A stretch of 63,927 nucleotides of DNA, the filler included, from Basidiobolus ranarum (lineage: Eukaryota): the NCBI GenBank assembly GCA_040143965.1. It is 36 parts of 36 records of this genome, joined end to end, with 100 filler letters (N's around TTAATTAATTAA, not from the genome) between each part and the next. Parts side by side here need not be neighbours in the genome. Positions count along the whole stretch, not along the records: positions 62,257 to 63,927 come from JASJQH010004587.1; 35 more parts are not named here. The stretch is one strand, 5' to 3'. Positions 12,503 to 63,927 of the stretch are shown here, one piece after another. Every line of letters begins with the position of its first letter. Positions within the stretch are counted from its first letter, which is position 1. Made by a program: the position numbers and the translations under genes. The notes beneath the pieces are model-generated. The model was not told the DNA's origin. It did no database searches and worked only from the letters and a program-made list of their open reading frames with translations.

Positions 12503-13572
12503 ATCAACACCTCAGAAGTAAGATTTTGGAAAAAGAATCTGAGGTAGTGGCTCTTTTTGGAGCTGGAAAATGTAGCTTTGGCAAGTACAAAAGTTACAAA
12601 AGCAGGAATCCAAGTTTATACTATGGCTGTAACAAACCAGGACATCAGATAAAAGATTGCAAATCAAGAAATTAAAACAAAAATGAGAAGTCAGAAGAAG
12701 CAAATAAGGTTTGCACCATAGGGGAAGTTTTATTCTTTTCTGCCCTATCAGTGACCTCTGAACAAGACTGTAGGTTGCGGTATATTGATTCTGGAGCCTC
12801 TCAACATTTCTCTAATCAAAAAAACTGGGGTAAGACACTCAAAACTGACATAAAGAAGAAGGTTTTTATGGGAGATGACTGGCCACTAGAAGCTCCAGGA
12901 GTGGGAAAAATTGAAGTGGATATTGGGGGCCTCTGGGGACATGTATTAGACACTGAAAAATGTGATACATGTGCCTCAGATAGCAAAAATTCTGTCATCA
13001 ATGAGTAAAGCTACATCTGAGAGTTATAGCTTTAATTTTGATCAAAATGGCTGCACAATTTGGGATCATAAAGGGAATTACATAGCTTCTGGAGCTAAGC
13101 AAAATAACTTGTATAAACTTCATTATATTAGGCCAATATATGAGCAAGTTAATGCTGCCACAGCTGAAGAGATAGACTGGAAAATCTGGCATAGGAGATT
13201 GGGTCATTTAGGAGCTGAAAACATGAGAAATTAAATCAAAAACAAGATGGTTTTTGGGACTAAAGTTTGTAATTCCACCAGATCTGGAGCTATGTGAAGG
13301 ATGCCTATATGCTAGGCAACACAGACAGCCATTTGTGGGCTCAGGAATGAGCAAAATCAATCAAAAATTGAGCCTGATACACTCAGATCTGTGTGGCCCA
13401 ATGCAGACAAAATCCTTAGGTGGAAAAAGGTATTTTATGACCTTTATTGATGATAAGACAAAGTATACTTGGGTGTACTTTCTGGCCAGTAAGGATGAAG
13501 CCTTTGATACCTTCAAGAAGTTCAAAGCAATGGTGGAGACTGAAACAGGTCTAAAGATTAAGATTATCTGTA
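12503..13572 (+). pseudogene. Ty1/Copia gag zinc knuckle-protease-integrase remnant
   Basis: YIDSGASQHF protease, WHRRLGHL, HSDLCGPM, FIDDKT. Confidence 0.92.
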
Positions 13573-14175: not shown

Positions 14176-14449
14176 GTTGAAGTTTNNNNNNNNNNNNNNN
14201 NNNNNNNNNNNNNNNNNNNNNNNNNNNNNTTAATTAATTAANNNNNNNNNNNNNNNNNNNNNNNNNNNNNNNNNNNNNNNNNNNNTAGTGTCTAGTCACG
14301 GATGTGCCTAGAGCAATTATCCAAAGGTGGAAGGTACCTTTGCCTTAGCAGGGAAGCTTGGGAAAGATGGGGAATAAGAGGGAAGCCAACCTTGGGGGGT
14401 TTCTTGGTTAGAGAACAGGGTAGAGAGAAGTCTACAGGCAAGTATAAGT

Positions 14450-15968: not shown

Positions 15969-16338
15969 NNNNNNNNNNNNNNNNNNNNNNNNNNNNNNNN
16001 NNNNNNNNNNNNTTAATTAATTAANNNNNNNNNNNNNNNNNNNNNNNNNNNNNNNNNNNNNNNNNNNNTAGTCCCCAACACCCCTACTCTTGAACTTGCC
16101 ACAGTATATTCCCTATTTGGTATATTATGTTTCACCTTGCAATATCTATATAAGCCCCATGTATTCCTTTATCAGACCTCAGTCTGATCAATGCCAGTTA
16201 TCAATAAAGATTCTTGCCAAAGTATCTTCCTTGTCCAGTCTTCTCTTGTCTTGTGGTCTACACCCAAGTACTCTCCTGCCTTCTAGCCTCTTGTTGTTGT
16301 TTCTAGTCCTTGTCCAGTTCCTTATTGTGACAATAACC

Positions 16339-16620
16339 TATTGAAATTATTTAGGGAGAAATATTGATCTGGCCAGGATTTGAACCTGGGATCTCCTTTA
16401 CTCTAGCAAGGTTCTCTAACCACAGAGCTACCAATCCTTGTATGCTGTGCCTATATTGCTAGGGAACCTTAATGTAGTCTGTCAATATATTGTACTTTGG
16501 CATTTCAGGTATACAAGCAACTGATTGGTGTCAGACTTTGTATTCAGATGCAGTCACCAAGCTCCATATTTTCCTCTTTGGGAATTACTGCTTGTACCAC
16601 AAGTCACCAGACTTTTAATA
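16339..16620 (-). repeat. Copia-type LTR (282 bp) carrying a tRNA-like cassette, 5' LTR copy
   Basis: Colinear reverse complement of 63384-63665, same length. Followed on the minus strand by GGTTAT (start of the Copia PBS), then cut by an LTR-A insertion. Confidence 0.88.
16365..16437 (-). ncRNA. tRNA-like sequence inside LTR (degenerate)
   Basis: GGATTGGTAGCTCTGTGGTTAGAGAACCTTGCTAGAGTAAAGGAGATCCCAGGTTCAAATCCTGGCCAGATCA: A box, B box, T stem CCAGG/CCTGG. Confidence 0.75.
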
Positions 16621-17751
16621 GAAGCAACTTTGATTATTGAGGAGTGGAGAGTTCAATCCAATCTTAGCAACCATGTGTTTATTAGTTTTCTTACACTTTT
16701 ACCACAGTTGATTGGCAACTGTTGCTTGCCACCAACATGGTACAAGTGGAAAACACTTGTCAATTGTATGGCTTATAATACTCTGGTGATGAAACTACCT
16801 TCATGTCCAATTGGTTGTTTAGCTTTCACCAATGATCTGAAAAGCCTGATGTCATATACTGTTTTCATATTATTGACAATCACTGAATCAGGTAAATGTT
16901 GCTCATATTTGGCTTACATACCATTGATTCCCCATCTTAAAGTTTTAATGAAATCACCCATATATAGATCATTGATCCAATACTAAAGTACTCACCATAA
17001 AGCTGATGGTGTTACCAATATACTTGATGGCTACCACTACCAGAATCTGAAAAGTCAAGGTTTCTTTGAGAACAAGTATGATCATGCATTTGCATTGGCT
17101 CTGGATGGTTTCTTGCTAAACAAATAAACTGTTGGAAAGGCTTGCTGGCCAATAATATTAATCAACTTAAATCAAACTTGGTATAAGCCATAAGCCTGAG
17201 ATTACATTGTTAAAGGAGGGCTGCTGGGGCCAGAGCTTCCCATTAGGCACAATGTACTTACTACTCAACTGCATTCCAATACTACTTACTCAGCTCTACA
17301 GTGAAAAATTCTATATGAATGAGCCATTTGAGACACTATCAAAGTTTGAATCTATTGAACAAATGCTTGAAAATGTCAACATACCATCATATTTTACCAG
17401 GACTCCCATCACTATCCCCTCATCTAGGTGTTTATTCAATTGCAAGGACTGGAATCACTTCATTCATATATATTCAAGTGGAATCTTGAAAAGATTTCTG
17501 CCTGTGAAGTATTGCAACATTGGGAGTTGTTTGTTGACATTCTTAATATATTCTTATAGCATCAACTCACATTGACAGATCTCAGGCAGATACAGTGACT
17601 GTTCAAAGATTTTGTTATTGGATATGAAGAGCCTTATTATAGGTTTAAAGAAGATAGACTGAATCTATGCCAGTATTCAATACATTCCCTGCTGCATCTT
17701 TCACTATGCTTAGAGATTATAGGCCCTTGCTATACATTCTGGGAGTTCCCA
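16621..17751 (+). mobile_element. CACTA-type transposase remnant (Transposase_21-like core)
   Basis: CPIGCLAF, YIPLIPHL, ALALDGF..WPIILINLN, HSLLHL..IIGPCYTFWEFP. Confidence 0.9.
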
Positions 17752-21415: not shown

Positions 21416-23010
21416 TAGCTAATATCATTGTATGTATTGGTGACACTCCTGCCATCAGTAAACTTGGAGGTTTTCATGGGCACAATGCACTATCTTGCTG
21501 TAGATTTTGTCAAATCAATGGCATTTATTCTATCAGGCATATGCATTAGTACTATTCAAATACAACACTAAACTCCATGATTTTACCATCAAGAGCCTGG
21601 TCAGATTACAACATGATCATTGATGTCAATTCATCAAATAGTCAGTCTAACATCAAACTTGGTATTGGCTGCAAGCCTAAGAATCTATTGCTCATGGGGA
21701 TCAGCTGGAGCTAGAGGTTCCATTAAGCACTATGCACTTACTATTCAACAACATTTCAATACTACTTACTCAGCTATATAGTGGAAAATTCAATATGAAT
21801 GAGCCATTTGAGATAGGATCAAAGTTTGAATCAATTGGGAAAATGCTTGAAAACATCCAGATACCATCATATTTTACCAGGACTCCCATCAATATCCACT
21901 CATATAGGCATTTATTTAAATGCAAAGACTGGAAGTATTGGATTTGTATACACTCAAGTGGAATCTTGAACAGATTTTTGCCTGATCAGTATTGGCAACA
22001 TTGAGAGTTGTTTGTTGATATTGTTAATATATTCTTATGGAATCAACTCACATTGGCAGATCTCAGGCAGATACAGCAACTGTGCAAAGATTGGGTAATT
22101 AGATACAAAGACTTCATTACAGGTTTAAAAAAGATGGACTGAATCCACACTGTTGTTCAATATATTCCCTGCTGCATCTTTCACAATGCTTAGAGATTAC
22201 AGGCTCTTGCTATACATTCTGGGAGTTCCTAATGGAGTGCACCTGTGGTGAAATGATGCCCCATGTGAAATTGTCAGTATTACCATATGCTAATCTGATT
22301 AACAATCTATCAGCAAAATCAGTGATGGATGTTATGCAATAGGTTAAGGAGTCTCCAGAGTATATCAACCTTCCAACAAAGGGCTCTTTTGAATGTGCTC
22401 ATGGGTTTTTGCATTGTTTGAGCACAATAACAGCAACAAAGCCCATTCCATGGACACAGTGTAAGTACCTCTATAATTGGACTAATATGCTTGTGTGATA
22501 ATCTGACTGTAAATTTAGGAAAGCTGCAACACAGACTTCTAGGTGAGATAGATTAAGATATGTGGTATTATTGTTTTAGCAATGGGGTAATCTATTCAAG
22601 CAATGATGCATCTACTTGTGGCAGGACATTTGTTGACTGCAAGTTGGGGATATATTGGCTGAATTCTTTGGGGGAATTTGCCAAACTCAAAGAGCTTATT
22701 CTAATTTTGAATGGTAACAAGAGTCAGCAATTTGCCAAGTGTCTGAGCTATTCAAAATTTCAGATGTTTAGCAATTTTTCCACTGTCAGTTTGCTGGTAA
22801 GGTATATTGACACTGTTGAGTGATGTCTAATCAGTCAAGTATGTACATATGTAGAGACTAAGCACAACAAGATTCTTGTATTTTTTGATCTTCATTACGG
22901 CTGGAATAAAAAGCCTAAAATATCTAAATTAAGGCATGCATATTAATTTGAATACCTACAGCAGTAAACCCAGTAATTAGATTTTGCAAAAATTGCCAGA
23001 TATTGAATAA
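21416..23010 (+). mobile_element. CACTA-type transposase remnant, central to 3' part
   Basis: GDTPAISKLG.F.GHNALSCCRFC, MHLLFNN, KDWKYW, FWEFLMECTCG. Confidence 0.9.
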
Positions 23011-23325
23011 CACTGTAGTTGTTTTAGGGTGTAAGCAGCAACTATAACTGCAATATCCCAAGGGTTTTGTGAGGTGTCCAAGGGGTGCGATAACCANNNN
23101 NNNNNNNNNNNNNNNNNNNNNNNNNNNNNNNNNNNNNNNNTTAATTAATTAANNNNNNNNNNNNNNNNNNNNNNNNNNNNNNNNNNNNNNNNNNNNGAGT
23201 TACTTTCAAACAGAAATGGAGCAAAGAATCCTTACACTAGGGCCCATTCGCAATGTTCACTATATAGACAATTGAATTGAAGCCCTTCGAGATGTGTAAT
23301 TTCTGTTGCGAAATAAAGCAAAATA

Positions 23326-23398
23326 CGAGCATACCAGGGATCGAACCTGGAATCTCCTGATCCGTAGTCAGGCGCCTTATCCATTTGGCCATACGCCC
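23326..23398 (-). tRNA. tRNA-Arg(ACG)
   Basis: GGGCGTATGGCCAAATGGATAAGGCGCCTGACT-ACG-GATCAGGAGATTCCAGGTTCGATCCCTGGTATGCTCG folds as a cloverleaf. Confidence 0.95.
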
Positions 23399-23626
23399 GT
23401 GTTCTCTAGTGGTTGTAGATATTCTTCTTACAAATTGTGTTATATATAAGGCCATCGATGTAGGAACAGACATATGGTCAACGCATGTTTGTATTCCAAA
23501 ATAAAATGCTCATCCCACTGTAAAATAAAGCATTGATGAAAGTAGTGATACAGTGATATGGCTAGACAAGATAATAATGCACCGCTAAAAACAACTGCAA
23601 TGGAACTTAGCCAAACAGAGTCTTGT

Positions 23627-23698
23627 TTCCGCATCGGGGAATCGAACCCCGGCCTTCTCGGTGAGAGCGAGAGATCCTGACCACTGGACCAATGCGGA
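23627..23698 (-). tRNA. tRNA-Glu(CTC)
   Basis: TCCGCATTGGTCCAGTGGTCAGGATCTCTCGCT-CTC-ACCGAGAAGGCCGGGGTTCGATTCCCCGATGCGGAA. Confidence 0.95.
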
Positions 23699-24015
23699 GA
23701 AGTATATCGTAGCTAATACAGTATTCAACCAATTTTCACATTTCACTTTTCTCGTTTGATATTTCCAAGTCAGTGATGCAAAGTGTATTTCAATATTGTT
23801 ACTACTAGGTTGGGATCTTTCCCTAACGGTACTTATTGATGGCTGTATTTTGCTTAGGAAAAATATTGTAATCAACATGATGGATAAGATATCTTATAGC
23901 AGAGTTTGTTTGGCTATTTATTTAAAAATCATGGATAGTGATGATGTACAATATTGATTCGTCTCTTAAATTCCACAAACCAAGTATGCTCATAGTCGAA
24001 AAGAGCATAAAAAAA

Positions 24016-24087
24016 CTCTCGGACTGGGAATTGAACCCAGGTCTCCCGCGTGACAGGCGGGGATACTCACCACTATACTATCCGAGA
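24016..24087 (-). tRNA. tRNA-Asp(GTC)
   Basis: TCTCGGATAGTATAGTGGTGAGTATCCCCGCCT-GTC-ACGCGGGAGACCTGGGTTCAATTCCCAGTCCGAGAG, followed by an oligo-T terminator. Confidence 0.95.
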
Positions 24088-24359
24088 AGAGATAGTTATA
24101 TGGAGCAGCCTAATTCTCAATAATGGTTTGGTCTTAGTAGTGACTTATGGAATAGTAAACGAATCCAACAGCTTGAAACAATCGGAACAACGCACACCAT
24201 CAGGAAATTATGGCATGGAGTACAATCAGTGAAAATGTATCAAGGGTTGTGATTTCTTCATGGCACAACCATGCCACAAAAGGAAGTACCGGAAATATAA
24301 CAAAAAAAGGAAAAGAGCTATGATTTCCAACTGCATCAAGACTTGGATGCAAAAGTATA

Positions 24360-24433
24360 TGCTCACAGCAGGGGTCGAACCTGCGGCCTTGGCGTTATTA
24401 GCACCACGCTCTAACCAACTGAGCTATGCGAGC
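24360..24433 (-). tRNA. tRNA-Ile(AAT)
   Basis: GCTCGCATAGCTCAGTTGGTTAGAGCGTGGTGCT-AAT-AACGCCAAGGCCGCAGGTTCGACCCCTGCTGTGAGCA. Confidence 0.95.
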
Positions 24434-24683
24434 CGATGGTTACTTTAGATCTTACCACCAAGATATACCAAACCCGTTATACACAAGTCTCCATTCACTT
24501 GTATTGAAATAGGCCACGAATAAATGCATGATCTTGAATCATATTTAGCCACATCAGCATACCTAATTAGCGAAATCAACTTCTCATAAATCCACAATAT
24601 AGCTTACCAATAGCATCATCAAAATAAGTATAAAGTCAGAGGGAAAGTTAATGTGTCAAGAGTTTCATAAAGAAAAAATTAAG

Positions 24684-24755
24684 TGAGGAGTGTGGGATTT
24701 GAACACACAACCTTTCGCTCTGGAGGCGAACGCGCTACCGTTGCGCCAACCCCCC
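24684..24755 (-). tRNA. tRNA-Trp(CCA)
   Basis: GGGGGGTTGGCGCAACGGTAGCGCGTTCGCCT-CCA-GAGCGAAAGGTTGTGTGTTCAAATCCCACACTCCTCA; one T-stem mismatch. Confidence 0.88.
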
Positions 24756-24976
24756 ACTTTCATAAGGAGGTAGCTTGCTGCTAAATTCATATCTCAATCT
24801 AGTAGTATCATTGATGTTATAGAGAATGTGAAAATTTATATCGAACCTATTGAAGGCCTGGCAGGGTAATTTCCATNNNNNNNNNNNNNNNNNNNNNNNN
24901 NNNNNNNNNNNNNNNNNNNNTTAATTAATTAANNNNNNNNNNNNNNNNNNNNNNNNNNNNNNNNNNNNNNNNNNNN

Positions 24977-33871: not shown

Positions 33872-35548
33872 ATGGAATTGCTAATTCTCACATTATTCAT
33901 ATATATATATAATATATGATCAGATTTTCAGCTAAGTGATATTTGACTAAGTAATGTTAACTAACTTATATGTGATATGTGAAATAGTTAGGTGTATAAA
34001 AGTAGAGATAATAAATATGATAAAGACAATAAACTTCAACAGGATCCACCCTCCAAAATAGCAAAACAGTCAGAGAACCATCACAATATTGTTGGCTTGC
34101 ATTCTGCCAGAGATTTTGATGGTGTGACAGTGGTTTCTTGACAGTATCTTAATGGTATTTGTACATGTTAAAATATTGATCCTCAAATTTGGCATGTGTT
34201 ATTCAATATCCAGCAATTTTTGCAAAAATACAATTTTTAAATGGCAGATTACTGGTTTACTGCTGTAGGAATTTGATATAATATGCATTCGTTTATTTAG
34301 ATATTTTAGGCTTTGTATTCCAGCCATAATGAGAATCAAAAAATACAAGAATCTTGTTGTGTTTAGTCTCTACCTATACACATACTTGACTGATTAGACA
34401 TAACTCAACAACATCAATATGCTTTGCCAGCACACTAATGGTGAAAAAATTGCTAAACATCTGAGATTTTGAATAGCACTGATACTTGGCAAATTGCAAA
34501 CTCTTGTTACCATTCATAATGAGAATAAGCTCTTTGATTTTAGCAAATTTCCATAAAGAATCCAGCCAATATATCCCCAACTTGCAGTCAACAAATGTCC
34601 TGCCACCAGTAGATGTTTCATAGCTCAAATAGATTACCCCATGCCTAAAATGAAAATACTGTGTATCTCCATCTATCTCACCAAGAAGTTTGTCTTGTAG
34701 CTTTCCTAAAAATACCATCAGATTATCACACAAGCAAATTAGTCCAATTATAAAGGTACTTACTCTGTGTCCATAGATTAGGCTTTGTTGCTGTTATTGT
34801 GCTCAAACAATGCAAAAACCCATGAGCACATTGAAAAGAGCCCTTTGTTGGCAGGTGAATATACTCTGGCATCTCCTTAACCCACTGCATTATATCCATC
34901 ACTGATTTTGCTGATACCTTGTTAATCAGATTAGGATACAGTAATACTGACAATTTCACACAGGGCATCATTTCACCACAGGTGTGCTCCATTGGGAACT
35001 CCCAGAATGTATAGCAAGGGCCTATAATCTCTAAGCATTGTGAAAGATGCAGGAGGGAATGTATTGAATACCATCATAGATTCAGTGTATCTTCTTTAAA
35101 CCTGTAATAAAGTTTTTCATATCCAATTACTAAATCTTTGCACAGTTGCTGTATCTGCCTGAGATCTGCCTATGTGAGTTGATGCCACAGGAATATATTA
35201 ATGATATTGACAAACAACTCCTAATGTTGCCAATACTAATCAGGCAGAAATCTTGTCAAAACTCCACTTGAATATATACAAATCCAATACTTCCAGTCTT
35301 TGCATTTGAATAAACGCCTAGATGAGTGGATATTGATGGGAGTCCGGGTAAAATATGATGGTATCTTGACATTTTCAAGCATTTTCCCAATTGATTCAAA
35401 CTTTGATCCTATCTCAAATGGCTCATTCATATTGAATTTTACCATATATTCCTGAGTAATTAGTATCCTAATGTTGTTGAATAGTAAGTGCATAGTGCCA
35501 AATGGGAAGCTCTGGCTCCAGCTGATCCCCTTTAGTAATATAATCTTA
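33872..35548 (-). mobile_element. CACTA-type transposase 3' half, right end interrupted by LTR-C (33872-34041)
   Basis: ORFs 35236-35493, 34726-34992, 34374-34733. Confidence 0.88.
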
Positions 35549-37425: not shown

Positions 37426-39101
37426 AACCACCAATTCCTCTAATTCTCCAAACCACTTCCAACAGGATCCCAAATACTTTAACAGGTTATGAGCCCTGAG
37501 CTTGCACTCTCTGTAATATCTACTTCTCAAATTTATGGAACTTTTCCTTTTTCTGAAAAATTGGATGGGACCAACTATCAAGTTTGGAAAATTAAAATGA
37601 ATATGCTGCTGCAAGAAAAAGGACTTTGGGACACTGTTGTAGGAGAAGAAAACAATGCAAAACTATCTGAAACCAACGTATTGCTCCAGGTTAAAAAAGA
37701 ACAAAGTGCCGTCAACACAATTTGTCTTAATGTTAAAGACAAATTGCTAATTCAATGTTTAAGAGCTAAAACTGCCAAGAAGGTAGGAAAGCCTTGGAAG
37801 ACACCTACCAAACAAGTTCTGCTGTTTCTAAGAAGACAATTCTTTAACTTAAAGATGAAGCCAGGAGAAGACATTAAATCACTAATTAATAGAGTCACTA
37901 TTATAGTGGATGAAATGGCATGCATAGGAGTACCTACCACTGATCAAGATATCATAGTTACCGTCCTGAATAGCTTGCCACTCAAGTTTCAGAGCCTAGT
38001 AATGGCTCTAGAATCAAGAACTGAAATTTGCCCTTAAATTATGTATTTGGCGGACTTTGGGATAACAATCTATGCAAATCAGGACTCAACCAAAAGAATG
38101 AAGAAAATGCTTTAATAGGCTATGGGAAACCTTCCTATAAAGGTCAAAAGAACTTTAAGAAGAAGAGTAACACATTCTGTGATTACTGTAAAAGAACTGG
38201 CCATTTAAGCAAAGATTGTTTTAAAAGAATTGCAAAAGAAGAAAAACATACTGAATCTGGAAATGTAGTTACTACAGAAGATCACTTATTCATATCTGCT
38301 CTATCTATGACTACCAACAAGGATACTCAGACATGGTATATTGATTCTGGAGCTTCCCAACATTTCACAAATGAAAAACAATGGTTTGTGGAATATGAAG
38401 AAATCCCAATTGGAAAGGTTTTCATATGAGATGACTGCACATTGGATGCTATTGGAATGGGAACAATTCAAGTCAATTTAACTGGAGCTTATGAAGAGAA
38501 AGTTTATACTTTCAAGGATGTACTACATGTTCCAGATATTGCCAAAAATTTAATATCTGTGTTCAAGGCTATCTCAGAAGGGCTAAAATTCAATTTTGAT
38601 AAGTCAGGATGCACCATCACTGATCAAAATGGGAATTATTTAGCTTTGGGAGAAAAGGATCAGAACTTATACAAACTTACATATAATCCAAGAGGTTTAT
38701 GTGTAAATATAAGTTATTCCAATCAAGAAACTATTCAATTATGGCATAAGAGATTTGGCCATATTGGATTTGATTATTTGAGCAAAATGATCAAAAATCA
38801 CCTAATTTCTGGAATTCAAATTAACTGCCCAACCAAAATGGAAATTTGTGAGGGTTGTATATATGGAAAACAAGCCAGGCAACCATTCAAGAGCTCTGGT
38901 TTAATCAAATCTGTCAAAAAATTGGATCTAATTCATTCAGATTTGTGTGGACCTATGCAAAATTTATCTTTAGGTGGAAAAAGATATTTAATCACATTTA
39001 TTGATGATTATACAAGATACACTTGGGTCTACTTTATGGAAAGAAAAGAAGAAGCTCTCTCTATCTTTAGAGATTTTAAAACACTTGTGGAGACTGAAAC
39101 T
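37426..39101 (+). mobile_element. Copia element 5' region: LTR-B end, PBS, gag, protease, integrase
   Basis: PBS GGTTATGAGCCC at 37485-37496; KLDGTNYQVWK, CDYCKRTGHLSKDC, WYIDSGASQH, WHKRFGH, HSDLCGPM; only a few lesions. Confidence 0.95.
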
Positions 39102-43522: not shown

Positions 43523-44428
43523 TATTGGGAAAATATGGGCTGCTTGGAGGAACTTTAGAAAAGTGGAGTTGTGAATAGCTTTGTGAGATAATTATATATT
43601 GTCCAGAAATAAAGCATTTATGCATTTTGGTGGAAATACAGAAAACTAACACTGGGGTTGTGTTCCAAACATCTGTGAGAGTAAAATGAGCTATTTGGGG
43701 CAATTTGGATGAGTATGAATTTTCCAATATGGAATTGCTAATTCTCACATTATTTACATATATATATAATATATGTTCCTATTTTCGGTTAAGTGATATT
43801 TGACTAAGTAATGTTAATAACTTATATGTGATATATGAAATAGTTAGGTGTATAAAGATAAAGATAACAAATATGATAAAGACAACAAACTTCAACATTC
43901 CCACTCAACTAAATATTCATATATCTCAGTCCTAGCTTAAATCTTAATTCTTCAAATTTTGGCTTGGGTAATGGCTTGGTAAGGATGTCAGCAAGCATGT
44001 CCTTGGTTGGACAGTACTGTAGTTAGACATGCTTATTCTCAATAGCTTCCCTAACAAATTGATGTTGAATGTCAATGTGCTTAATTCTAGCATGAAATTT
44101 GGGATTTTAAGCTAAAGAAATACAACCTTGATTATCTTTGAAAATTGTGGTGGGTGAACTTTGAAAAATTCTCAAGTCTTTGAACAGTTTCCTTAACCAC
44201 ATAGCCTCATTTGCTATATGTGATGCTGCCATGTACTCTGCTTCAGTTGTTGAAATTGCTATGGTGGGTTGTTTCTTGCTATTCCAAGATATGGCTGCTT
44301 CACTATGGAGAAAGGTATATGTAGTGATAGATCTTCTGTCCTCAATATCACCTCCCCAATCTGCATCACTAAACCCAATTAGATCCTTATTTTCATAAGA
44401 ATATGTGTATCTTAATCCCAGATCAATT
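43523..44428 (-). mobile_element. Copia RNase H, PPT and 3' LTR-C (43523-43897)
   Basis: SKKQPTIAISTTEAEYMAAS, KHIDIQHQFVRE; PPT GTTGAGTGGGAA; TGTTGAAGTTTG. Confidence 0.92.
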
Positions 44429-44528: not shown

Positions 44529-45870
44529 AACACTTGTCAATTGTTTGACTTGAAATACTTCAGTAATTAAACTACCTTTATGTCTAAATGGTTGTTTGGC
44601 TTTCACTGGTGATCTGAAAAACCTGAAGTCATATCCTGTTTGCACCAAATTGGCAATCACTAAACAGGTAAATATTTTTCATATTTAGCTTGTATACCAT
44701 TGATTTCCTGTCTTCAATTTTTGATAGTACCACCCAAATATTGATCATTGATCCATTACTAAAGTACTCACCAGAGAGCTGATGGTATGACTTTTATACT
44801 TGAAGAATATCACTACCAGAATCTAAAAACTCAAGGTTTCTTTGAGAACAAATATGATCATGCACTTGCATTAGCTATGGATGATTTCTCACTAAACAAA
44901 TATGCCATTGGAAAGGCTTGCTGGCCAATAATTTTAATTAAATTAAATCTTCTTCCTTATGAGCAGTTTAAAAGTTATAATACTTTGATATTATTAATCA
45001 AATCTGGACCTAAATCAACAGTTCTTGTAGATAGCTTCTTAGAGCCTTTGATTGTGGAATTTGAATGGTTATCTAATGGGGTTCAGGTGGGTGAATATTT
45101 TTCTAAAGCCAATATCATTGTAAGTATTGGTGACACTCCTGCCATCAGTAAACTTGTAGCTTTTTGCAGGCACAATGCTCCGTCTTCTTGTAGATTCTGT
45201 CAGGTCAATGGAGTTTACTCTACCTGGCATACACATTATTAATATCCAAATAGAACACCAAACTCCATGATTTTGCCATCAAAAGCTGGCTCAGATTTGA
45301 ACATGATCACTGATATCTTTTGACCAAGTAGTCAGTCCAACATCAAACTTGGGATTAGGTGTAAGCCTAAGATTATTTTGCTAAAGGGGATCAGCTGGAG
45401 CCAGTGCTTCCCATTAGGCACTATGCACTTGCTTTTTAACAATATTCAAATACTACTTACTCTGCTATATAGTAGAAAATTCAATATGAGTGAGCCATTC
45501 TAGATAGGATCAAAGTTTAAATTGATTGGAAAAATGCTTGAAAATTTCAAGATACCATGATTTTTTTTCAAGACTCCCATCAATATCCACTCATCTAGGT
45601 GTTTATTCAAATATAAAGATTGGAAGTATTGTCTTTGTATATATCCAAGTGAAATTGTTAAAGGATTTCTGCCTGATAAGTATTGGCAACATTGCAAGTT
45701 GTTTGTGGATATTGTTAATATATTCTTATGGTATCAACTCATATTGGCAGATCTCAGACAAATACAGCAAATGTGCAAGTTTTTGTAATTGGATATGAAA
45801 AACTTTATTACTGGTTTAAAGAAGATAGACTGAATCTATGCAGATATTTAATAAATTTCCTGCTGTATCT
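44529..45870 (+). mobile_element. CACTA-type transposase catalytic core remnant (followed by LTR-B, 45871-46203)
   Basis: ALAMDDF..WPIILIKLNLLP..F...SGPK...DSFLEPLI.E...L.NG...GDTPAISKL..F..HNA...CRFC. Confidence 0.9.
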
Positions 45871-46303: not shown

Positions 46304-47977
46304 GGAGGTGGGTAAGCTACAAGATCACTCTATGGACTTAAACACTCACCCAGGGCCTGGTGCACTAAGATAGACACATACTAGGAATCACTTGATTTCC
46401 AAAAGAGTACAGCAGATTTTGAGATTTACTTTAAGACAGATAATGACAGTAAGGTGATACTTGCCTTATAGGTAGATGAACCGATTATAGCTACCAATAA
46501 TGATGAAGCTCTCAGGAACACCAAAAGAGATCTATCAATCCAATTCAAGATTACCAATTTAGATGAATTTTATACTTTTTTAGGCCTGTAGATCCATACA
46601 GATATATTGAAAAAATCTGTTACTCAGAGTCAATCTAAATATATCTTTGACATTCTCAGATGCTACAGGATAGAGAATTGCAAGCTAGTAGCAACTCCCA
46701 CGGATCCAGGTGTGCAACAAGTCAAAAATCACATCAAAAATGATGAAAATTGGCCAAATATGGATCAAAACATGTCATTTGAAAGCCCTGAGTTCCCTTA
46801 TCAATCTATGGTAGGTAGTCTGATTTACAGTATGACTGGAACCTGGCCAGATATCTCTTTTGCAGTGGGAGTAGTTAGCCAACATGTGCAAACCCCAGGA
46901 TATGAGCATTATGTAGCAATTAAGTGGATCTTCAGATATTTGAAGGGGACAGTTGATCTGGGATTAGGATACTCATATTCTTATGAGAATAAGGGTCTAA
47001 GTGGGTTTAGTGATGCAGATCGGGGATGTGATATTGAGGACAGAAGATCTATCACTCGATATACCTTTCTCCATAGTGAAGCAGTGATATCTCTGAATAG
47101 CAAGAAACAACCTACTGTAGCACTTTCAATAACTGAAGAAGAGTATATGGCAGCATCACATACAACAAAGGGGGCTATGTGGTTAAGGAAACTGTTCAAA
47201 GACTAGGGCATTTTTCAAAGTTCACCCACTGTAGTTTTCAAGGGTTATCAAAGTAGTATTTTTTAAGCTAAAAATCCCAAATTTCATGCTAGAAGTAAGC
47301 ACATCGACATTCAGCATCACTATGATAGGGAAGCTATTGAGAATAAGCACATCCAACTGGAGTACTGTCCAACTGAGGATATGATTGCTCAAATGCTTAC
47401 CAAACCATTGCCCAAGCCCAAATTTGAAGAATTAAGATTTAATTGAGTTGTTTTCTTTATCATATTCGTTATCTCTATCTTGATACACCTAATTATTTCA
47501 CATATCACATATAAGTTAGTTAACATTACTTAATCAAATATCACTTAGCTGAAAATTCAACATATATTATATATATGTGTATAATGTGAGGATCAGCAAT
47601 TCAATATTGGATATTTTAAACTTGTCCAAATTGCCCCAAAGATAGCTCATTTTACTCCCACAGATATTCTGAACACAACCCCAGTGTTAATTTTCTGTAT
47701 TTTTTGCAAAATGTATAAATGCTTTATTTCTGGACAAATAATAATTATCTCACAAAGTTATTCACAACTTCACTTTTCTAAACTTCCTCCAAACAGCCCA
47801 TATTTTCCCAGTAGGTTATGAGCCCCATGTTCTAATCTTTACAGCATGACAGAAACCACTACAATTACCTTTATTAACTCAAGTGTTGAAAAGCTTGATG
47901 GAGAAAATTACAATTTCTGGAAGTTTAAGATGCAAATCATGCTGGAAGACAGGGAGCTTTGGGATGTAGTCTCTGGA
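46304..47977 (+). mobile_element. Copia RT/RNase H - LTR-C - PBS - gag junction
   Basis: LYGLKHSPRAW, YQSMVGSL, FSDAD..D..DRRS, KHIDIQHH; LTR about 47447-47813; GGTTATGAGCCC at 47814-47825; KLDGENYNFWKFKM. Confidence 0.9.
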
Positions 47978-53397: not shown

Positions 53398-54188
53398 CCA
53401 CCAAGGTAATATACAACCTTCACGATGGCAGCGAAGAAAATAACTGCAGGTAAGACGGTAAAGACAAAAATACCGATGTCGGCGATATCGTCACTGGTTA
53501 CAAATGCCAAGCCAGATTTAGAGAAATGGAGAAGAGTGGAGCACATGTTTGATACCCAGCTGAAAATATCGTATCCGACAGATGTCTTGAGGATAAACAA
53601 ACCGAGGAGGAATTGTAACAGCACACCAACAACAACAGTTCTCCAAGGAATACCTTTGCGATTGTCGGATGTTGCATATAGTAGCACAATAAATACAACG
53701 AGACCAAGGAGTGATCTTAGTCTGTCTAAACGACTGCTATGTCCCTCTTGAACAGGAAGAGCAAGAGTAACAGATACAATCAAGGCAACTGGAAGTAGGA
53801 CACCCAAGATGAGACGGATTCTTTCGGGAATCACCGACACGACTTTCATGATTGTACCAAAAAGCATTCCCAAAGGCTTGGAAAGCACTCTGGTAGTCAC
53901 GTGGTAAAACATGAGCTTTAATGAAACAAAAGCCCAAAGCAACGAAAGGACCAAGGTGTCCTTTCCGTGCAATACCCAGGCTCCTATCATCATCCCGGTA
54001 ATGATCAAGAACATGAGGAGATGGAACCATAAGCGATAGCGACGGTAAAATGTCGGCGGTAGATCATCTAGTGAGGTGTCAACCTCTTTCTTTTCCTCGG
54101 GATAAGAGTCTTTTGCACTTACAGGGAGAAAAGAGGTAGGATGAGACTCAGAAGCCCTGGGAGCTTCGATGGTGTTGTCCACAGTCAT
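53398..54188 (-). CDS. Concentrative H+/Na+ nucleoside cotransporter (CNT/SLC28), 5' part
   Basis: IPWRTVVVGVLLQFLLGLFILKT.VGYDIF, FVFTVLPAVIFFAAIV.V.YYLG; truncated by the contig end. Confidence 0.93.
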
Positions 54189-54856
54189 TAGGAAGTAGTA
54201 GTTGAAGAAGTAGATAGTATGGATAGTTACTTGGAGCACAATACTTTTATACAAATAGCTGTGTTGGTCTCGACATGGCGAATCGGAACTATAGTGATGA
54301 TTGCCATTTTTAGAATCAATTAAGAATATTTACCATTCCAAAAAAGATTTGCGTATATAGCTATTATTAGTATTTATGGTTTGGTTGGATACTTGGATAG
54401 GAGAATTAAAAGGACAGACTTGGACTATGCTCAAGGCGACGGAACAAACACCGTGTTCTCAAACCTTGGCTACCACGTTGGTCAATCCCTTGGTTAATAC
54501 CTGAGTAAGTAGGGAACAGGGCTCTAGCAAAAACCCTGAACACGTTAGATTACCATTTATAGTCAAATTGGCAAGTCAATGTTGGTAAAATGGAAATACT
54601 TAATATATATCCATATTAAGCAGTTTCTCCTTGATTTCGAACAGTTTGTGGCAGAAAGCTTAAAAAGGTCACTATGCGCACATATTAAAGATGAATCCAA
54701 GCGGTAATATTGTGTGGAGCTCAGACGAGTCCAAGCAGTAATATTGTGTGGAGTAAAGATGAATCCAAACAGTATTTGCGTCCAATCATCTGTGGATTTC
54801 TAACTCTAATATCCATGACATTAGATTTGGCATAATTGCGATGATACCAAATGATC

Positions 54857-55069
54857 AACAGACTTGATGCTATTGTCTTTGATAAGACTGGAACTTTGAC
54901 TATTGGTAAGCCTATCGTCAATGGAGTCAGAATGTACTTGAGTAGTGAGCATATTACCCGTGATTCTAAAACAGCTACCTTTGATTCCGAAAAGAAAGAG
55001 GATCATACGAAGACCTTAATCCTCTCGGACGCGGAACGTTTCTTATGCGAGTTAGTGCATAAACTCGAG
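54857..55069 (+). pseudogene. P-type ATPase (P1B heavy-metal-like) phosphorylation-domain fragment
   Basis: LDAIVFDKTGTLTIGKPIV; no room upstream for the N-terminal half. Confidence 0.65.
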
Positions 55070-56941: not shown

Positions 56942-58146
56942 GCGGGGTCAAGAAGGCCCATGTTTTGAGGACTATAATAATTAGGGAGTATTATATGAAC
57001 ACCAGCACTGGGAGCAACAATCTCCGCTTGTCTAGGCTCGTCCATTTGACGAAGGCCATCAGTGAAGGGACCAGTGGCATTGATAACGCCTTTGGCCCTA
57101 ACAGTCCACTCTTCGCCAGTAAAGGCGTCTCTAACTACAGCACCACGGACTACCTCTTTAGTTTTATCATCAGGAGAAATTTCCTTAATCAGGCTGACAA
57201 CTTCAACATGATTTGCTACGACAGCACCATACGCAACGGCTGTAAGGGCAATGGCCACGTTCATTCGAGAATCATTGTGTTGACCGTCGTAATAGACCAG
57301 GGCTCCAACCAAGTTCTCTTCTTTGAGCATTGGAAAGGCCTCCAATGCCTTGCTTTTACTCAAAATATAACTACTTTCTAGTTTCTCTTTCCCGGCAAAG
57401 AGATCATAGAACTTACATCCCACCCAATAATAAGGTAGTTGCCACCATCTGGAAACAGGTAGCATGTCATAAATAAATGTATTCCATGTGAAAGTACTCT
57501 AAATAGTGAAAAAAAACTCACTTGTAGACCGGCAACATAATAGGAAGTTGATAACTTAAATAAGGGGCGATCTTCAGGAATGTTGCTCTTTCATGAAGCG
57601 CTTCGGTTACAAGTTTGTATTGTTCATAATCAAGTTCCATAAACGCTTTTTCAAGATAACGTACACCTCCATGAACCAACTTGGTAGATCTAGAGGAAGT
57701 GCCTGAAGAAAAATTCATTTAGCTAAGTTGTTTTGAGAGTAATAGAAAGGAAAAATGGTACCTGAAGCGAAATCATCACGCTCCACCAAAGCAACTTTTA
57801 GTCCTCTGGTAGCAGCGTCTAATGCAACGCCAGTTCCAGTAGCCCCACCACCGACGATTAGTAAATCAAAAGGCGGCTCGCTTTGTTCAACTCTTGGCCG
57901 TTCAGACCCATCCTTTCGGAGTCCCTTCAGTTGATTGATAACTTGTTGACGATTAGGGGGAGACCAGAAGTTTTTAGGTCTATTGGGGTCGATGTCATCC
58001 AAAGCTTGTGGCTGAGCATCGGCATAAGCCTGCGACAGGAAAGGAGGTCTAGATTGTCGTTGGTTAAGATAATAATAAGAAGTGGCAACACCTGTGGCTA
58101 CAAGAGAGCTGCAAAGGTAAGGTTTGCTTCTTAAACGAGCCCACAT
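56942..58146 (-). CDS. GUT2: Mitochondrial FAD-dependent glycerol-3-phosphate dehydrogenase, exons 58146-57762, 57702-57522, 57448-<56942
   Basis: [70 protein letters not shown] introns of 59 and 73 nt. Confidence 0.96.
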
Positions 58147-58781
58147 GAACTACAGGATCCAATGAAAAGGGTATGTGAAAAAGTATATGACTGAGGGTCT
58201 GTATGATCATATTTATATATGATTTGGTCAATCCACCTCAATGTCTAGAAAGGGATGACCTACTATCACTGGCACACGTTGCACGTGAATAAGACTGGGA
58301 ATCTCAGCAAAGAAGGGATATTTGTGTGTATCTCTGTATATTTCCAAAATGAGAACTATGCAGATTCTACGTGCTATCAAGAGCAAATTACGGGGATCTT
58401 GAAACCATTGTAGCATTGAGGTTGATTGCTACCCGGTAGCAAAGCAAATACGCCATGGCACACGGCCCTAAGGCAATTTCAAAAGGCGCCAGATCTCCAG
58501 CGCACTCATAGTTAGACTTGAATACTAATTGGAATAGAGAAGGTGGTTTTGAAACTAATGAAAAAGAAAAACTGAGGAGACTAACGAGTATAGGTGACGC
58601 TGTGCCTAAATATNNNNNNNNNNNNNNNNNNNNNNNNNNNNNNNNNNNNNNNNNNNNTTAATTAATTAANNNNNNNNNNNNNNNNNNNNNNNNNNNNNNN
58701 NNNNNNNNNNNNNACAGGGATTGGTAATGATTTGAGCTTTGTCATATATTCATTGGTGGATGATGTTTTAGACCTTGTCCC

Positions 58782-62156: not shown

Positions 62157-62619
62157 NNNNNNNNNNNNNNNNNNNNNNNNNNNNNNNNNNNNNNNNNNNN
62201 TTAATTAATTAANNNNNNNNNNNNNNNNNNNNNNNNNNNNNNNNNNNNNNNNNNNNAAGAACCTGAGGCAGTGGCTCTTGTTGGAGCTGGAAAGCATAGC
62301 TTTGGCAAGTACAAAGGTTACAAAAGAAGGAAACCAGGTTTATGCTATGATTGTAACAAACCAGGACACCAGATAAAAGATTGCAAATCAAGAAATTACA
62401 ACAAAAATGAGAAGTTGGAACAAGTAAATCAGGTTTCAACCAAAGAGGAAGTTTTATTCATTTCTGCCCTGTCAATGACCTCTGAACAAGACTATAAGTT
62501 GTGGTATATTGATTTTGGAGCCTCTCAAAATTTCTCTAATCAATAAAACTGGTTTAAGACACTCAAAACTGACATAAACAAGAAGATCTATATGGGAGAT
62601 GACTGGCCATTAGAAGCTC

Positions 62620-62997
62620 TGTTGAAGTTTATTGTCTTTATCATATTTATTATCTCTATCTTTATACACCTAACTATTTCATATATCACATACAAGTTAG
62701 TTAACATTACTTAGTCAAATATAACTTAGCTGAAAATCAGAACATATATTATATATATATGTGAATAATGTGAGAATTAGCAATTCCATACTGGAAATTT
62801 TAAACTCATCCAAATTACCCCAAAGATAGCTCATTTTACTCCCACAGATGTTCTGAACACAACCCCAGTTTTAGTTTTCTGTATTTCCACCAAAAAGTAC
62901 AAATGCTTTATTTCTGGACAATAAACAATTATCTCACAAAGCTATTCAAAACTCCACTTTTCTAAAGTTCCTCCAAACAGCCCATATTTTCCCAATA
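62620..62997 (+). repeat. Solo Copia LTR-C (378 bp), TSD AGCTC
   Basis: AGCTC-TGTTGAAG...CCCAATA-AGCTC. Confidence 0.93.
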
Positions 62998-63383
62998 AGC
63001 TCTGGGAGTGTGAGAAATTGAAGTGGATCTTGGGGACATCTCTGGGTACATGTGTTTGACACTGAAAAACATGCTATATGTGCCTGGGATAGCAAAAAAT
63101 TTGTTGTCAGTGAGTAAAGCTACATCTGAGAGATGTAGCATTAATTTTGATCAAAATGGCTGTACAATCTGGGATCAAAAAGGGAATTACGTAGCTTCTG
63201 GAGCCAAGCAAAATAACTGGTATACACTTCATTATGTTAGGCCAATATATGAACAAGTTAATACTGCTACAGCTGAAGAGATAGACAGGAATATCTGGCA
63301 TAGGAGATTGGGTCATCTAGGAGCTGAAAATATGAGAAATTTAATCAAAAACAAGATGGCTTTGGGACCAGATTTTGTAATTC

Positions 63384-63665
63384 TGTTGAAAGTCTGGTGA
63401 CTTGTGGTACAAGCAGTATTTCCCAAAGAGCAAAATATGGAGTATGGTGACTGCATCTGAACACAAAGTCTAAGGCCAATCAGTTGCTTGTATAGCTGAA
63501 ATGCCAAAGTACCATATATTGTTAGACTAGGTTAAGGTTCCCTAGCAATATAGGCAGAGCATACAAGGACTGGTAGCTCAGTGGTTGGAGCACCTTGCTA
63601 GAGTGAAGGAGGCCCCAGATTCAAATCCTGGCCAGACCAATATTTATCCTTAAATAATTTCAATA
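63384..63665 (+). repeat. Solo LTR (282 bp) with tRNA-like cassette, TSD AATTC
   Basis: AATTC-TGTTGAAA...TTTCAATA-AATTC; the empty site TTTGTAATTCCACCAG is seen at about 13266-13281. Confidence 0.92.
63567..63639 (+). ncRNA. tRNA-like sequence inside LTR (nominal anticodon AGA, short variable arm)
   Basis: GGACTGG-TA-GCTC AGTGGTTG GAGC-A-CCTTG CTAGAGT GAAGG-AGGCC-CCAGA TTCAAAT CCTGG-CCAGACC-A; 73 nt. Confidence 0.78.
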
Positions 63666-63927
63666 AATTCCACCAAATCTGGAGCTATATGCAGGTTGCC
63701 TATATGGTAGGCAACACAGACAGCCATTTGTGGGCTCTGGAATGAGCAAAATTGATCAAAAATTGGGCATGATACACTCAGATCTGTGTGGCCCAATGCA
63801 GACAAAATCCTGAGGCAGAAAAAGGTATTTTATGACCTTTATTGATGATAAGACAAAGTATACTTGGGTGTACTTTCTGGCCAGTAAGGATGAAGCCTTT
63901 GATACCTTCAAGAAGTTCAAAGCAATG

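What the first reader, a model, noticed from the sequence alone, without database searches (positions are those of the whole stretch)
63384..63665. LTR that carries its own tRNA-like (Pol III) gene
Seen: a 282-bp element with TGTTGAAA...TTTCAATA ends and a perfect 5-bp TSD (AATTC), inserted in a Copia integrase whose empty site occurs at about 13270. It contains a 73-nt cloverleaf with A box (TAGCTCAGTGG) and B box (GG/GATTCAAATCC) at 63567-63639. A second colinear 282-bp copy lies at 16339-16620(-), so the tRNA is an integral part of the LTR and not a chance SINE insertion. Known: plant Cassandra elements carry 5S rRNA in their LTRs; tRNA-bearing LTRs have to my recollection been reported only for a few non-autonomous elements. 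Inference: a fungal Copia lineage using an internal Pol III promoter, a tRNA-like barrier against silencing, or tRNA mimicry. The acceptor and T stems are disrupted at different sites in each copy, so the consensus should fold better.
Basis: partly seen in the sequence, partly recalled or inferred. Interest (0 to 1): 0.85.

Follow-up and report, generated by a model that had tools for sequence, protein, structure and literature searches.

The report
Helenus-type tRNA-bearing solo LTR
This is a leftover long terminal repeat of a small retrotransposon whose repeat contains a decayed tRNA copy, a kind of element described in 2024 as Helenus, here found in a Basidiobolus-like fungus outside the groups where it was reported.

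Summary
A 282-bp element (63384-63665) sits between perfect 5-bp AATTC duplications inside a Copia integrase, and the uninterrupted site is at 13271-13275. A gap-free 90% copy lies at 16339-16620(-). Both carry a 73-nt tRNA-like segment that passes Rfam tRNA (49.0 and 41.7 bits, cut-off 29).

It behaves as an LTR. Copy 2 is followed directly by GGTTAT, the first six bases of the GGTTATGAGCCC primer-binding site that follows two Copia LTRs in this window. Its ends (TGTTGAAAG...TTTCAATA) match those of a Copia LTR (TGTTGAAG...CCCAATA).

This architecture is already published as Helenus/TRIMp3 (Kojima 2024, PMC10886601): tRNA-like LTRs, 5-bp duplications, a tRNA-iMet anticodon-loop primer site, Copia-mobilised, frequent solo LTRs.

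Two points are new. The host looks like Basidiobolus (two genes 88-90% identical), not a rust or mushroom. No full-length element could be seen, so non-autonomous status is inferred.

The tRNA-like part is not a working tRNA: 3 of 21 pairs are broken in each copy, two of them shared, and there is no cloverleaf minimum-energy fold.

The window is an artificial chain of 36 contigs of about 1.68 kb.

Verdict: new member of a known kind, modest interest.

The parts
63384..63665 (+). Solo LTR (copy 1), 282 bp, ends TGTTGAAAG...TTTCAATA, inserted in a Copia integrase
   Evidence: Read. The copy has 0 CpG and no run of 4 or more T in sense.
63379..63383 (.). Left target-site duplication AATTC
63666..63670 (.). 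Right target-site duplication AATTC
63567..63639 (+). tRNA-like segment of copy 1 (LTR positions 184-256)
   Evidence: Rfam tRNA 49.0 bits. ARAGORN calls it 'Ser(aga)', 73 nt. 3 of 21 pairs are non-standard. The minimum-energy fold is not a cloverleaf, z +0.46.
63574..63584 (+). A-box-like TAGCTCAGTGG (tRNA positions 8-18)
   Evidence: Read. It matches the TRGCY...YGG pattern that PMC10886601 gives for Helenus LTRs.
63618..63628 (+). B-box-like GATTCAAATCC (tRNA positions 52-62); G53 is changed to A in this copy, while copy 2 keeps GGTTC
16339..16620 (-). Copy 2 of the LTR, read here as a 5' LTR; 90% identical to copy 1, no indels
16365..16437 (-). tRNA-like segment of copy 2
   Evidence: Rfam tRNA 41.7 bits; 3 of 21 pairs non-standard
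16333..16338 (-). GGTTAT directly after the LTR end: a stub of a primer-binding site, cut off by another LTR insertion
   Evidence: The full motif GGTTATGAGCCC follows two Copia LTR ends in this window.
16069..16332 (+). End of an unrelated LTR family ('X', ...CCTTATTGTGACA) that interrupts the element 6 bp after copy 2
   Evidence: Of 6 X copies printed, the same terminus is seen in full at 16332, 7372, 26904 and 14463 (reverse strand). One copy is cut by a contig end and one is truncated short of it. Matches are listed.
16621..16973 (+). Target DNA on the outer side of copy 2: repeat family 'Y', entered at an internal point (GAAGC...)
13271..13275 (.). Empty site: single AATTC in a paralogous Copia integrase on another contig
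   Evidence: Pfam rve and gag_pre-integrs around it
62620..62997 (+). Second solo LTR in the same Copia contig ('LTR-Z', 378 bp, TGTTGAAG...CCCAATA), flanked by AGCTC at 62615-62619 and 62998-63002; empty site at 12891-12895
47448..47977 (+). LTR-Z followed by GGTTATGAGCCC (47814-47825) and a Copia gag N-terminus: a candidate autonomous partner family
37426..39101 (+). Another Copia: LTR end ...TTTAACA, then GGTTATGAGCCC (37485-37496), then gag, protease and integrase
   Evidence: Pfam Retrotran_gag_2 at E 8e-26. Similarity to the Copia at 12779-13546.

Best explanation
The 282-bp unit is the LTR of a Helenus-type element (TRIMp3): a short LTR retrotransposon whose LTR has absorbed a tRNA-derived block that keeps A- and B-box-like motifs.

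Copy 1 is a solo LTR left by LTR-LTR recombination after integration into a Copia integrase. Copy 2 is a 5' LTR whose internal region was cut off, 6 bp in, by another LTR insertion.

Proposed mechanism, with the status of each step:
1. Integration by a Copia-type integrase that recognises TGTTGAA.../...CAATA ends and makes 5-bp duplications. The insertion and the duplication are shown; the Copia type of the integrase is inferred.
2. Minus-strand priming by a 3'-truncated initiator tRNA on a GGTTATGAGCCC-type site next to the 5' LTR. Only the first 6 bases are seen. The rest is inferred from Copia elements in the same window.
3. Transcription from the tRNA-like internal Pol III promoter at LTR position 184, giving U3 = 1-183 and R-U5 = 184-282. 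With no T4 terminator in the LTR, transcripts would run through the internal region and end beyond the 3' LTR. This is inferred by analogy with Cassandra and Helenus and was not tested.
4. Gag, RT and integrase supplied in trans by an autonomous Copia such as the LTR-Z family. This is inferred.

Both copies are dead relics: 0 CpG, about 10% diverged, and the tRNA part is not a usable tRNA. The host is a Basidiobolus-like fungus.
For: Insertion and LTR identity:
- Perfect 5-bp duplication and a matching empty site.
- A second gap-free copy at 90% identity.
- Copy 2's end abuts GGTTAT.
- GGTTATGAGCCC directly follows LTR ends at both of its 2 occurrences in the window, and a Copia gag follows each.
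- LTR-Z is a Copia LTR that also occurs as a solo LTR with a 5-bp duplication in the same contig. It shares the terminal motifs TGTTGAA and CAATA with this element and nothing in between.

tRNA-like block:
- It passes Rfam tRNA in both copies.
- TAGCT...TGG is kept in both copies and GGTTC in copy 2.
- There is no T4 run in sense in either copy.

Published precedent, PMC10886601. I read the abstract, Methods, Results, Discussion, figure legends and Tables 1-2.
- Fungal Helenus has tRNA-like LTRs with TRGCY/YGG and GGTTC motifs and 5-bp duplications.
- Many copies are solo LTRs flanked by 5-bp duplications, and many are called tRNA-Ser-AGA by gene finders.
- Reported LTR lengths run from 120 to 323 bp, so 282 bp fits.

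Host: a nucleoside-transporter fragment is 88% identical, and a glycerol-3-phosphate dehydrogenase fragment 90% and 89% identical, to Basidiobolus proteins. The next taxa are at 76% or less.
Against: - No full-length element was seen, with no second LTR and no polypurine tract. Non-autonomous status and element size are therefore unknown.
- The PBS evidence is 6 bases. The chance of a match at a fixed position is about 1 in 4096, but it is one observation.
- The motif GGTTATGRG is not over-represented in the window: 2 found, 0.90 expected, and 23 of 100 shuffles reach 2. Only its position carries weight.
- The LTR ends TG...TA, not the canonical TG...CA.
- The B box is mutated in copy 1 (GATTC) and A14 in copy 2.
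- No Pol III terminator lies inside the LTR, unlike Cassandra as described in PMC10886601.
- The tRNA block is not better conserved than the rest of the LTR: 12.3% against 9.1% divergence.
- In fungi Helenus is reported only from Pucciniales and a few Agaricomycetes.
- No sequence comparison with the published consensus sequences was possible, because they are in supplements and Repbase, which I could not see.
Confidence: 0.68

Rival explanations
1. It is the LTR of an autonomous Copia retrotransposon. The tRNA-like block sits in the LTR of a full gag-pol element.
For: - The PBS stub and the terminal motifs are the same as those of autonomous Copia elements in the window.
- The internal region of this family was never seen, so a coding interior is not excluded.
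Against: - All tRNA-bearing LTR families in PMC10886601 are TRIMs of 311-1263 bp. However, its screen kept only elements shorter than 1000 bp, so this is partly circular.
- That paper argues that Pol III processivity would not allow a long element.
- None of the Copia internal regions in this window is joined to this LTR.
Confidence: 0.14
2. It is an LTR, but the tRNA block is only a passenger: an old tRNA or SINE retro-copy fixed in the family's LTR. The element would be transcribed by Pol II like any LTR element, and the A and B boxes would have no role.
For: - The block is no better conserved than the rest of the LTR.
- Box B or A14 is hit in each copy.
- There is no T-run terminator.
- A 6-nt CAATAT occurs 20 nt upstream of the block and again at its 3' end. 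It could be a relic duplication, or chance.
Against: - Two dead copies cannot show selection either way.
- In the described Helenus families the box A and B motifs are the conserved part.
- Cassandra, the 5S analogue, is reported to be transcribed from its 5S promoter.
Confidence: 0.15
3. It is not an LTR at all. It would be a tRNA-derived SINE, or a miniature DNA transposon with 8-bp inverted ends.
For: - It contains a tRNA-derived block with A and B boxes.
- Its ends form a 7-of-8 inverted repeat.
Against: - The tRNA block is at positions 184-256 of 282, not at the 5' end, and there is no A-rich or simple-repeat tail.
- The duplication is exactly 5 bp, as for the Copia LTR-Z 760 bp away.
- The ends are shared with that Copia LTR.
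- Copy 2 is followed by a PBS-like GGTTAT.
Confidence: 0.03

Closest known systems
Helenus (TRIMp3), fungal families such as LTR-1_PTrit, Helenus-9_PSt, Helenus-2_UVF (Kojima 2024, PMC10886601)
   Same: - A tRNA-like block with TRGCY...YGG and GGTTC motifs inside the LTR.
- 5-bp target duplications and frequent solo LTRs.
- A PBS of the tRNA-iMet anticodon-loop type and a link to Copia.
- Gene finders call it 'tRNA-Ser-AGA' although it is not a working tRNA.
- The LTR length lies inside the reported 120-323 bp range.
   Different: - The host is Basidiobolus-like (Basidiobolomycota). Fungal Helenus is listed only for Pucciniales, Agaricus, Coprinopsis and Amylostereum.
- No full-length TRIM was seen here.
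- No sequence similarity to the published consensus sequences could be tested.
- Whether this is a separate origin is therefore unknown.
Cassandra (plant TRIM with 5S rRNA in its LTRs)
   Same: An LTR element whose LTR holds a Pol III-type small-RNA gene copy. The proposed logic is the same: an internal promoter in the 5' LTR drives the template RNA.
   Different: - Cassandra carries 5S (type 1 promoter) rather than tRNA (type 2).
- It has conserved Pol III terminators in the LTR and an 18-bp terminal RNA repeat. This LTR has no T4 run.
- Cassandra is found in plants, this element in a fungus.
tRNA-derived SINEs (SINE2)
   Same: A tRNA-derived block with A and B boxes, interspersed and non-coding.
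   Different: - SINEs start with the tRNA head, carry a tail and are moved by LINEs with variable duplications. These SINE traits are recalled, not taken from a call.
- Here the block is internal to a unit with LTR ends, a 5-bp duplication and an adjacent PBS.
Copia elements primed by a 3'-truncated initiator tRNA (Ty5, Drosophila copia; the Copia families in this window)
   Same: A GGTTAT... primer site directly after the LTR, 5-bp duplications and shared LTR end motifs.
   Different: Those elements are autonomous and their LTRs have no tRNA-like block. Rfam at E up to 1 found none elsewhere in the window apart from the five genuine tRNA genes.

Membership tests
LTR retrotransposon LTR (solo or 5' LTR) | Discrete insertion with a 4-6 bp target-site duplication and a matching empty site | tested here: met
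   AATTC lies on both sides. There is a single AATTC at 13271-13275 in the paralogous Copia.
LTR retrotransposon LTR (solo or 5' LTR) | Short inverted termini 5'-TG...CA-3' | tested here: inconclusive
   The termini are TG...TA (TGTTGAAA/TTTCAATA, 7 of 8 inverted). A proven Copia LTR in the window ends the same way...CCCAATA or ...CAGTA.
LTR retrotransposon LTR (solo or 5' LTR) | Primer-binding site directly after the 5' LTR | tested here: inconclusive
   Only GGTTAT (6 nt) is seen before an unrelated LTR cuts in. The full GGTTATGAGCCC follows 2 of 2 Copia LTR ends that carry it.
LTR retrotransposon LTR (solo or 5' LTR) | Occurs as a direct pair flanking an internal region with a polypurine tract | not testable with these tools
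   There are only 2 copies, on separate 1.68-kb contigs.
Helenus / TRIMp3 | tRNA-derived sequence inside the LTR, with box A (TRGCY, YGG) and box B (GGTTC) | tested here: met
   Rfam tRNA gives 49.0 and 41.7 bits. TAGCT...TGG is present in both copies. GGTTC is present in copy 2 and is GATTC in copy 1.
Helenus / TRIMp3 | TRIM architecture: two LTRs, a short non-coding interior with PBS and PPT, total length 311-1263 bp | not testable with these tools
   No full-length copy is available.
Helenus / TRIMp3 | [quoted passage not shown] | tested here: inconclusive
   The 5-bp duplication is met. For the PBS only the first 6 nt are seen. Reading GGTTATGAGCCC as the complement of the initiator-tRNA anticodon arm rests on recalled tRNA knowledge.
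Helenus / TRIMp3 | Sequence relatedness to a published Helenus consensus | not testable with these tools
   The consensus sequences are in supplements and Repbase, which I could not see. The main text has 0 mentions of Basidiobolus, Zoopagomycota or Mucoromycota.
Functional tRNA gene | Cloverleaf with intact stems, and an anticodon that agrees with the body type (Ser needs a long variable arm; recalled) | tested here: not met
   3 of 21 pairs are non-standard in each copy. The minimum-energy folds are not cloverleaves, with z +0.46 and -0.20, while the 2 genuine tRNAs folded beside them give cloverleaves. The anticodon is AGA but the variable loop has only 5 nt.
tRNA-derived SINE | tRNA head at the 5' end of the unit with a 3' tail (recalled definition) | tested here: not met
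   The block is at 184-256 of 282, and 183 nt of shared LTR sequence precede it in both copies. There is no tail.

The most novel reading that the evidence does not exclude
The LTR belongs to an autonomous Copia of an early-diverging fungus, and that Copia has recruited a tRNA-derived Pol III promoter into its LTR. That would be the first coding LTR retrotransposon with a small-RNA LTR. It would also be an origin of the tRNA-in-LTR design independent of the Basidiomycota Helenus.
Probability: 0.1. Interest if true: 0.65.

Novelty: new member of a known kind. Interest (0 to 1): 0.3.

Why it matters
tRNA-like LTRs inflate tRNA gene counts. PMC10886601 shows hundreds of false tRNA-Thr, Ser and Ala calls in rust genomes. 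The two 'tRNA-Ser(AGA)' calls in this window are of that kind and should be masked in annotation.

If the Basidiobolus assignment holds, the Helenus/TRIMp3 design also exists outside the Basidiomycota. That points either to a much older origin or to another independent capture of a tRNA by a Copia-dependent element. It would also give a second fungal lineage in which Pol III-driven LTR retrotransposition could be tested.

Tried and rejected
- Whole-genome copy census: no genome is held for this window.
- Metagenome scans. A 21-mer from the conserved 5' part of the LTR gave 0 hits. A 19-mer from the tRNA-like anticodon arm gave 4 loci. In 0 of 4 did similarity extend beyond the 19-mer, and 0 of 4 held a tRNA, so these are chance matches.
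- More copies in the window. blastn with word size 7 and an nhmmer profile gave only the two known copies. There was also a weak partial hit (E 0.022) on the genuine tRNA-Arg gene and 5 hits with E above 3.
- Rfam at E up to 1 found no further decayed tRNA-like blocks.
- Earlier-findings look-ups by place, sequence and words returned nothing relevant.
- Source tRNA. Global alignment to the 5 genuine tRNAs in the window gave 40-48 identities over alignments of 73-81 columns, so none stands out.
- Protein-atlas look-ups did not settle the host taxon. The Copia protein search gave only unnamed or plant-like relatives, the best at 75%.
- A literature search for the PBS motif gave nothing useful.
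- Rejected: a rust-fungus host, which was my first guess from CpG depletion and the tnp2-type transposase. Two host genes point to Basidiobolus instead.
- I did not build a consensus of the two copies. With two sequences it would add nothing beyond the per-position comparison.

Full report
**What the window is.** The 63,927-base window is not one stretch of chromosome. It holds 70 runs of exactly 44 N, arranged as 35 spacers of N44 + TTAATTAATTAA + N44. The 12-mer was checked at 5 of 5 spacers. The spacers separate 36 pieces of 1671-1688 bp, ordered by falling length. This is a chain of small unplaced contigs, so distances and neighbourhoods across pieces mean nothing. Copy 1 of the finding lies in piece 62257-63927, copy 2 in piece 16069-17751, and the 'empty site' in piece 12503-14185.

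**Checking the observation.**
- The element 63384-63665 (282 bp) starts TGTTGAAAG and ends TTTCAATA. AATTC flanks it on both sides, at 63379-63383 and 63666-63670.
- The flanks are a Copia gag-pre-integrase/integrase region. Pfam finds gag_pre-integrs and Pol_BBD upstream, and rve in the paralogue.
- The paralogous copy on piece 12503-14185 aligns straight across the junction with a single AATTC at 13271-13275. This proves a discrete insertion with a 5-bp duplication.
- A second copy at 16339-16620(-) is colinear. It has 28 differences in 282 positions, 16 of them transitions, and no indels.
- blastn at word size 7 and an nhmmer profile of the two copies found no further copy in the window. 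The only other hit below E = 1 was a partial match (E 0.022) on the genuine tRNA-Arg gene.
- ARAGORN calls a 73-nt 'tRNA-Ser(aga)' in each copy.
- Rfam's tRNA model scores them 49.0 and 41.7 bits against a gathering score of 29. The five genuine tRNA genes of the window score 58.9-65.8.

**Is the tRNA block integral to the repeat?** Yes, for these two copies. It occupies positions 184-256 of the 282-bp unit in both, with no gap at either edge. It has diverged about as much as the rest: 9 of 73 positions, against 17 of 183 upstream and 2 of 26 downstream. It has no tail and is not at the 5' end of the unit, so the unit is not a SINE.

**Is the unit an LTR, and which way does it point?** Three results say yes, in the sense orientation of the tRNA block.
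1. The duplication is 5 bp with a clean empty site.
2. In copy 2 the outer side (16621 onward) is a repeat family entered at an internal point. On the inner side the LTR end TTTCAATA is followed by GGTTAT and then at once by the terminus of an unrelated LTR family. That terminus...CCTTATTGTGACA, is also seen in full at 7372, 26904 and 14463.
   - GGTTAT is the start of GGTTATGAGCCC, which occurs twice in the window. Both times it sits directly after an LTR end...TTTAACA at 37484 and ...CCCAGTA at 47813. Both times a Copia gag follows: Pfam Retrotran_gag_2 at E 8e-26 for the first, and a clear ...EKLDGENYNFWKFKM... gag N-terminus for the second.
   - The reverse complement of that 12-mer reads as an anticodon arm with anticodon CAT between G/C stem bases. 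From recalled tRNA knowledge this is the initiator-tRNA arm used by copia and Ty5. PMC10886601 states that such anticodon-loop priming is the dominant type in fungal Helenus and in their Copia partners.
   - The motif count itself is not above chance: 2 found, 0.90 expected, and 23 of 100 shuffles reach 2. Only the position is informative, and for copy 2 only 6 bases are visible.
3. The same Copia contig that holds copy 1 carries a second solo LTR, 'LTR-Z'. It spans 62620-62997 (378 bp), is flanked by AGCTC, and has its empty site at 12891-12895. LTR-Z is the LTR that precedes the PBS and gag at 47814. It starts TGTTGAAG and ends CCCAATA. It therefore shares both terminal motifs with the tRNA-bearing LTR and nothing in between. 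Shared ends and a shared PBS start point to the same or a related Copia integrase and RT.

**What the tRNA block is not.** It is not a working tRNA.
- In the Rfam alignment 3 of 21 stem pairs are non-standard in each copy. A3:A70 and G31:G/A39 are shared by both. A53:C61 is private to copy 1 and also destroys the GGTTC of box B. G10:A25 is private to copy 2.
- Neither copy folds into a cloverleaf at minimum free energy. Their energies are no better than shuffles (z +0.46 and -0.20). The two genuine tRNAs folded beside them give cloverleaves (z -0.83 and -1.19).
- The anticodon AGA would mean serine, but the variable loop has 5 nt rather than the long arm of serine tRNAs (a recalled rule).
- The differences at stem positions 4 and 71 keep G:U pairs. 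No pair changes on both sides, so two copies give no covariation signal.

**Comparison with print.** A search for tRNA-derived LTR elements in fungi led to Kojima 2024, PMC10886601. I read its abstract, Methods, Results, Discussion, figure legends and Tables 1-2. Its supplements, which hold the family list and consensus sequences, were closed.

[quoted passage not shown] For the fungal families it reports:
- 5-bp duplications;
- PBS similarity to Copia, and in one case internal similarity to Copia;
- many solo LTRs flanked by 5-bp duplications;
- gene finders calling them tRNA-Thr-AGT, Ser-AGA, Ala and so on in their hundreds, although most cannot encode a functional tRNA.

Together with Cassandra (5S) and Ajax (5S), the paper groups them as 'TRIMp3'. 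The element here matches every feature that could be tested: box motifs, 5-bp duplication, PBS start, Copia link, the 'Ser-AGA' call, the solo-LTR state, and an LTR length inside the 120-323 bp quoted. The architecture is therefore already known.

**What is new or open.**
- Host. A nucleoside-transporter fragment (piece 53398-55069) is 88% identical to a Basidiobolus ranarum protein and 54-62% to other Basidiobolus proteins. A glycerol-3-phosphate dehydrogenase fragment (piece 56942-58613) is 90% and 89% identical to B. ranarum and B. meristosporus, with the next taxa at 76% or less. NCBI taxonomy places the genus in Basidiobolomycota. This assumes that all pieces of the chain come from one assembly.
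- Reported range. Kojima lists fungal Helenus only from Pucciniales and from Agaricus, Coprinopsis and Amylostereum. The main text never mentions Basidiobolus, Zoopagomycota or Mucoromycota. Its screen was seeded from Repbase and extended only to related genomes, so absence from the list is not evidence of absence.
- Further literature searches. Helenus + TRIM + retrotransposon found 4 papers, of which 3 were listed. Basidiobolus + tRNA + retrotransposon found 13 papers, of which 5 were listed. Basidiobolus + genome + TE + LTR was also searched. No listed title or abstract reported such an element in Basidiobolus.
- Structure. No full-length element was available, so 'non-autonomous TRIM' is an inference by analogy. 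An autonomous Copia with this LTR is not excluded.

**Mechanism.**
- Shown: integration with a 5-bp duplication, LTR-type ends shared with a Copia LTR, the presence of a tRNA-derived block with box-like motifs, and decay of both copies.
- Inferred: priming by a truncated initiator tRNA (6 nt seen), trans-mobilisation by a Copia such as the LTR-Z family, and Pol III transcription from the block.
- If Pol III starts at the block's first base, then U3 = 1-183 and R-U5 = 184-282. Neither copy has a run of 4 or more T in sense. A Pol III transcript would therefore not stop in the 5' LTR, but it would also find no terminator in the 3' LTR and would have to end in flanking DNA. This differs from Cassandra, which is reported to terminate inside its 5S copy.
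- This gap, and the lack of extra conservation of the block, keep alive the rival reading that the block is a passenger in a Pol II-transcribed element.

**Verdict.** It is best filed as a probable new host lineage or family of that kind, with full-length structure and Pol III use still to be shown. Interest is modest.

Noticed in passing
whole window; spacers e.g. 1689-1788, 62157-62256: The window is an artificial chain of 36 contigs of 1671-1688 bp, sorted by falling length. They are joined by N44 + TTAATTAATTAA (stops in all frames) + N44. Any finding that relies on distance or synteny between pieces is void.
   Followed up: yes
all 36 pieces (table): CpG loss is extreme and specific to repeats. 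29 of 36 pieces, the transposon-filled ones, have CpG observed/expected of 0.00-0.19. The 7 genic or tRNA pieces have 0.60-0.77. GpC is normal throughout. This suggests methylation-driven or RIP-like C-to-T decay aimed at repeats in this fungus.
   Followed up: partly
23326-24755 (-), piece 23197-24876: Five good tRNA genes (Arg-ACG, Glu-CTC, Asp-GTC, Ile-AAT, Trp-CCA; 58.9-65.8 bits) are packed head to tail at about 300-390 bp spacing on one 1.68-kb contig. This is a mixed tRNA gene cluster.
   Followed up: no
62620-62997: A second solo LTR (378 bp, AGCTC duplication, empty site 12891-12895) lies in the same Copia contig. It belongs to a Copia family whose 5' LTR, PBS and gag start are at 47448-47977.
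   Followed up: yes
46953-47977 and 43523-44426: In piece 46304-47977 the LTR-Z copy is preceded by the same roughly 490 bp that precedes a 3' LTR copy at 43523-43897, and it is followed by PBS and gag. Either the elements are tandem and share an LTR, or the assembler collapsed the 3'-interior/LTR/5'-interior path.
   Followed up: partly
44763-45239 (+); related repeats at 17171-17751, 21652-22229, 34993-35546: There is a multi-copy DNA transposon family with a Transposase_21 (tnp2, CACTA-like) domain at E 3e-12. It is as CpG-depleted as the retroelements.
   Followed up: no
3682-4710 (+): A Ty3/chromovirus integrase C-terminus, with rve, a Tf2-1-like SH3 and a chromodomain, has a 343-codon open frame. 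It is the longest open frame in the window.
   Followed up: no
63549-63554 and 63638-63643: The hexamer CAATAT occurs 20 nt before the tRNA-like block and again overlapping its last two bases, in both LTR copies. It could be a relic duplication from the original tRNA or SINE capture, or chance in AT-rich DNA.
   Followed up: no
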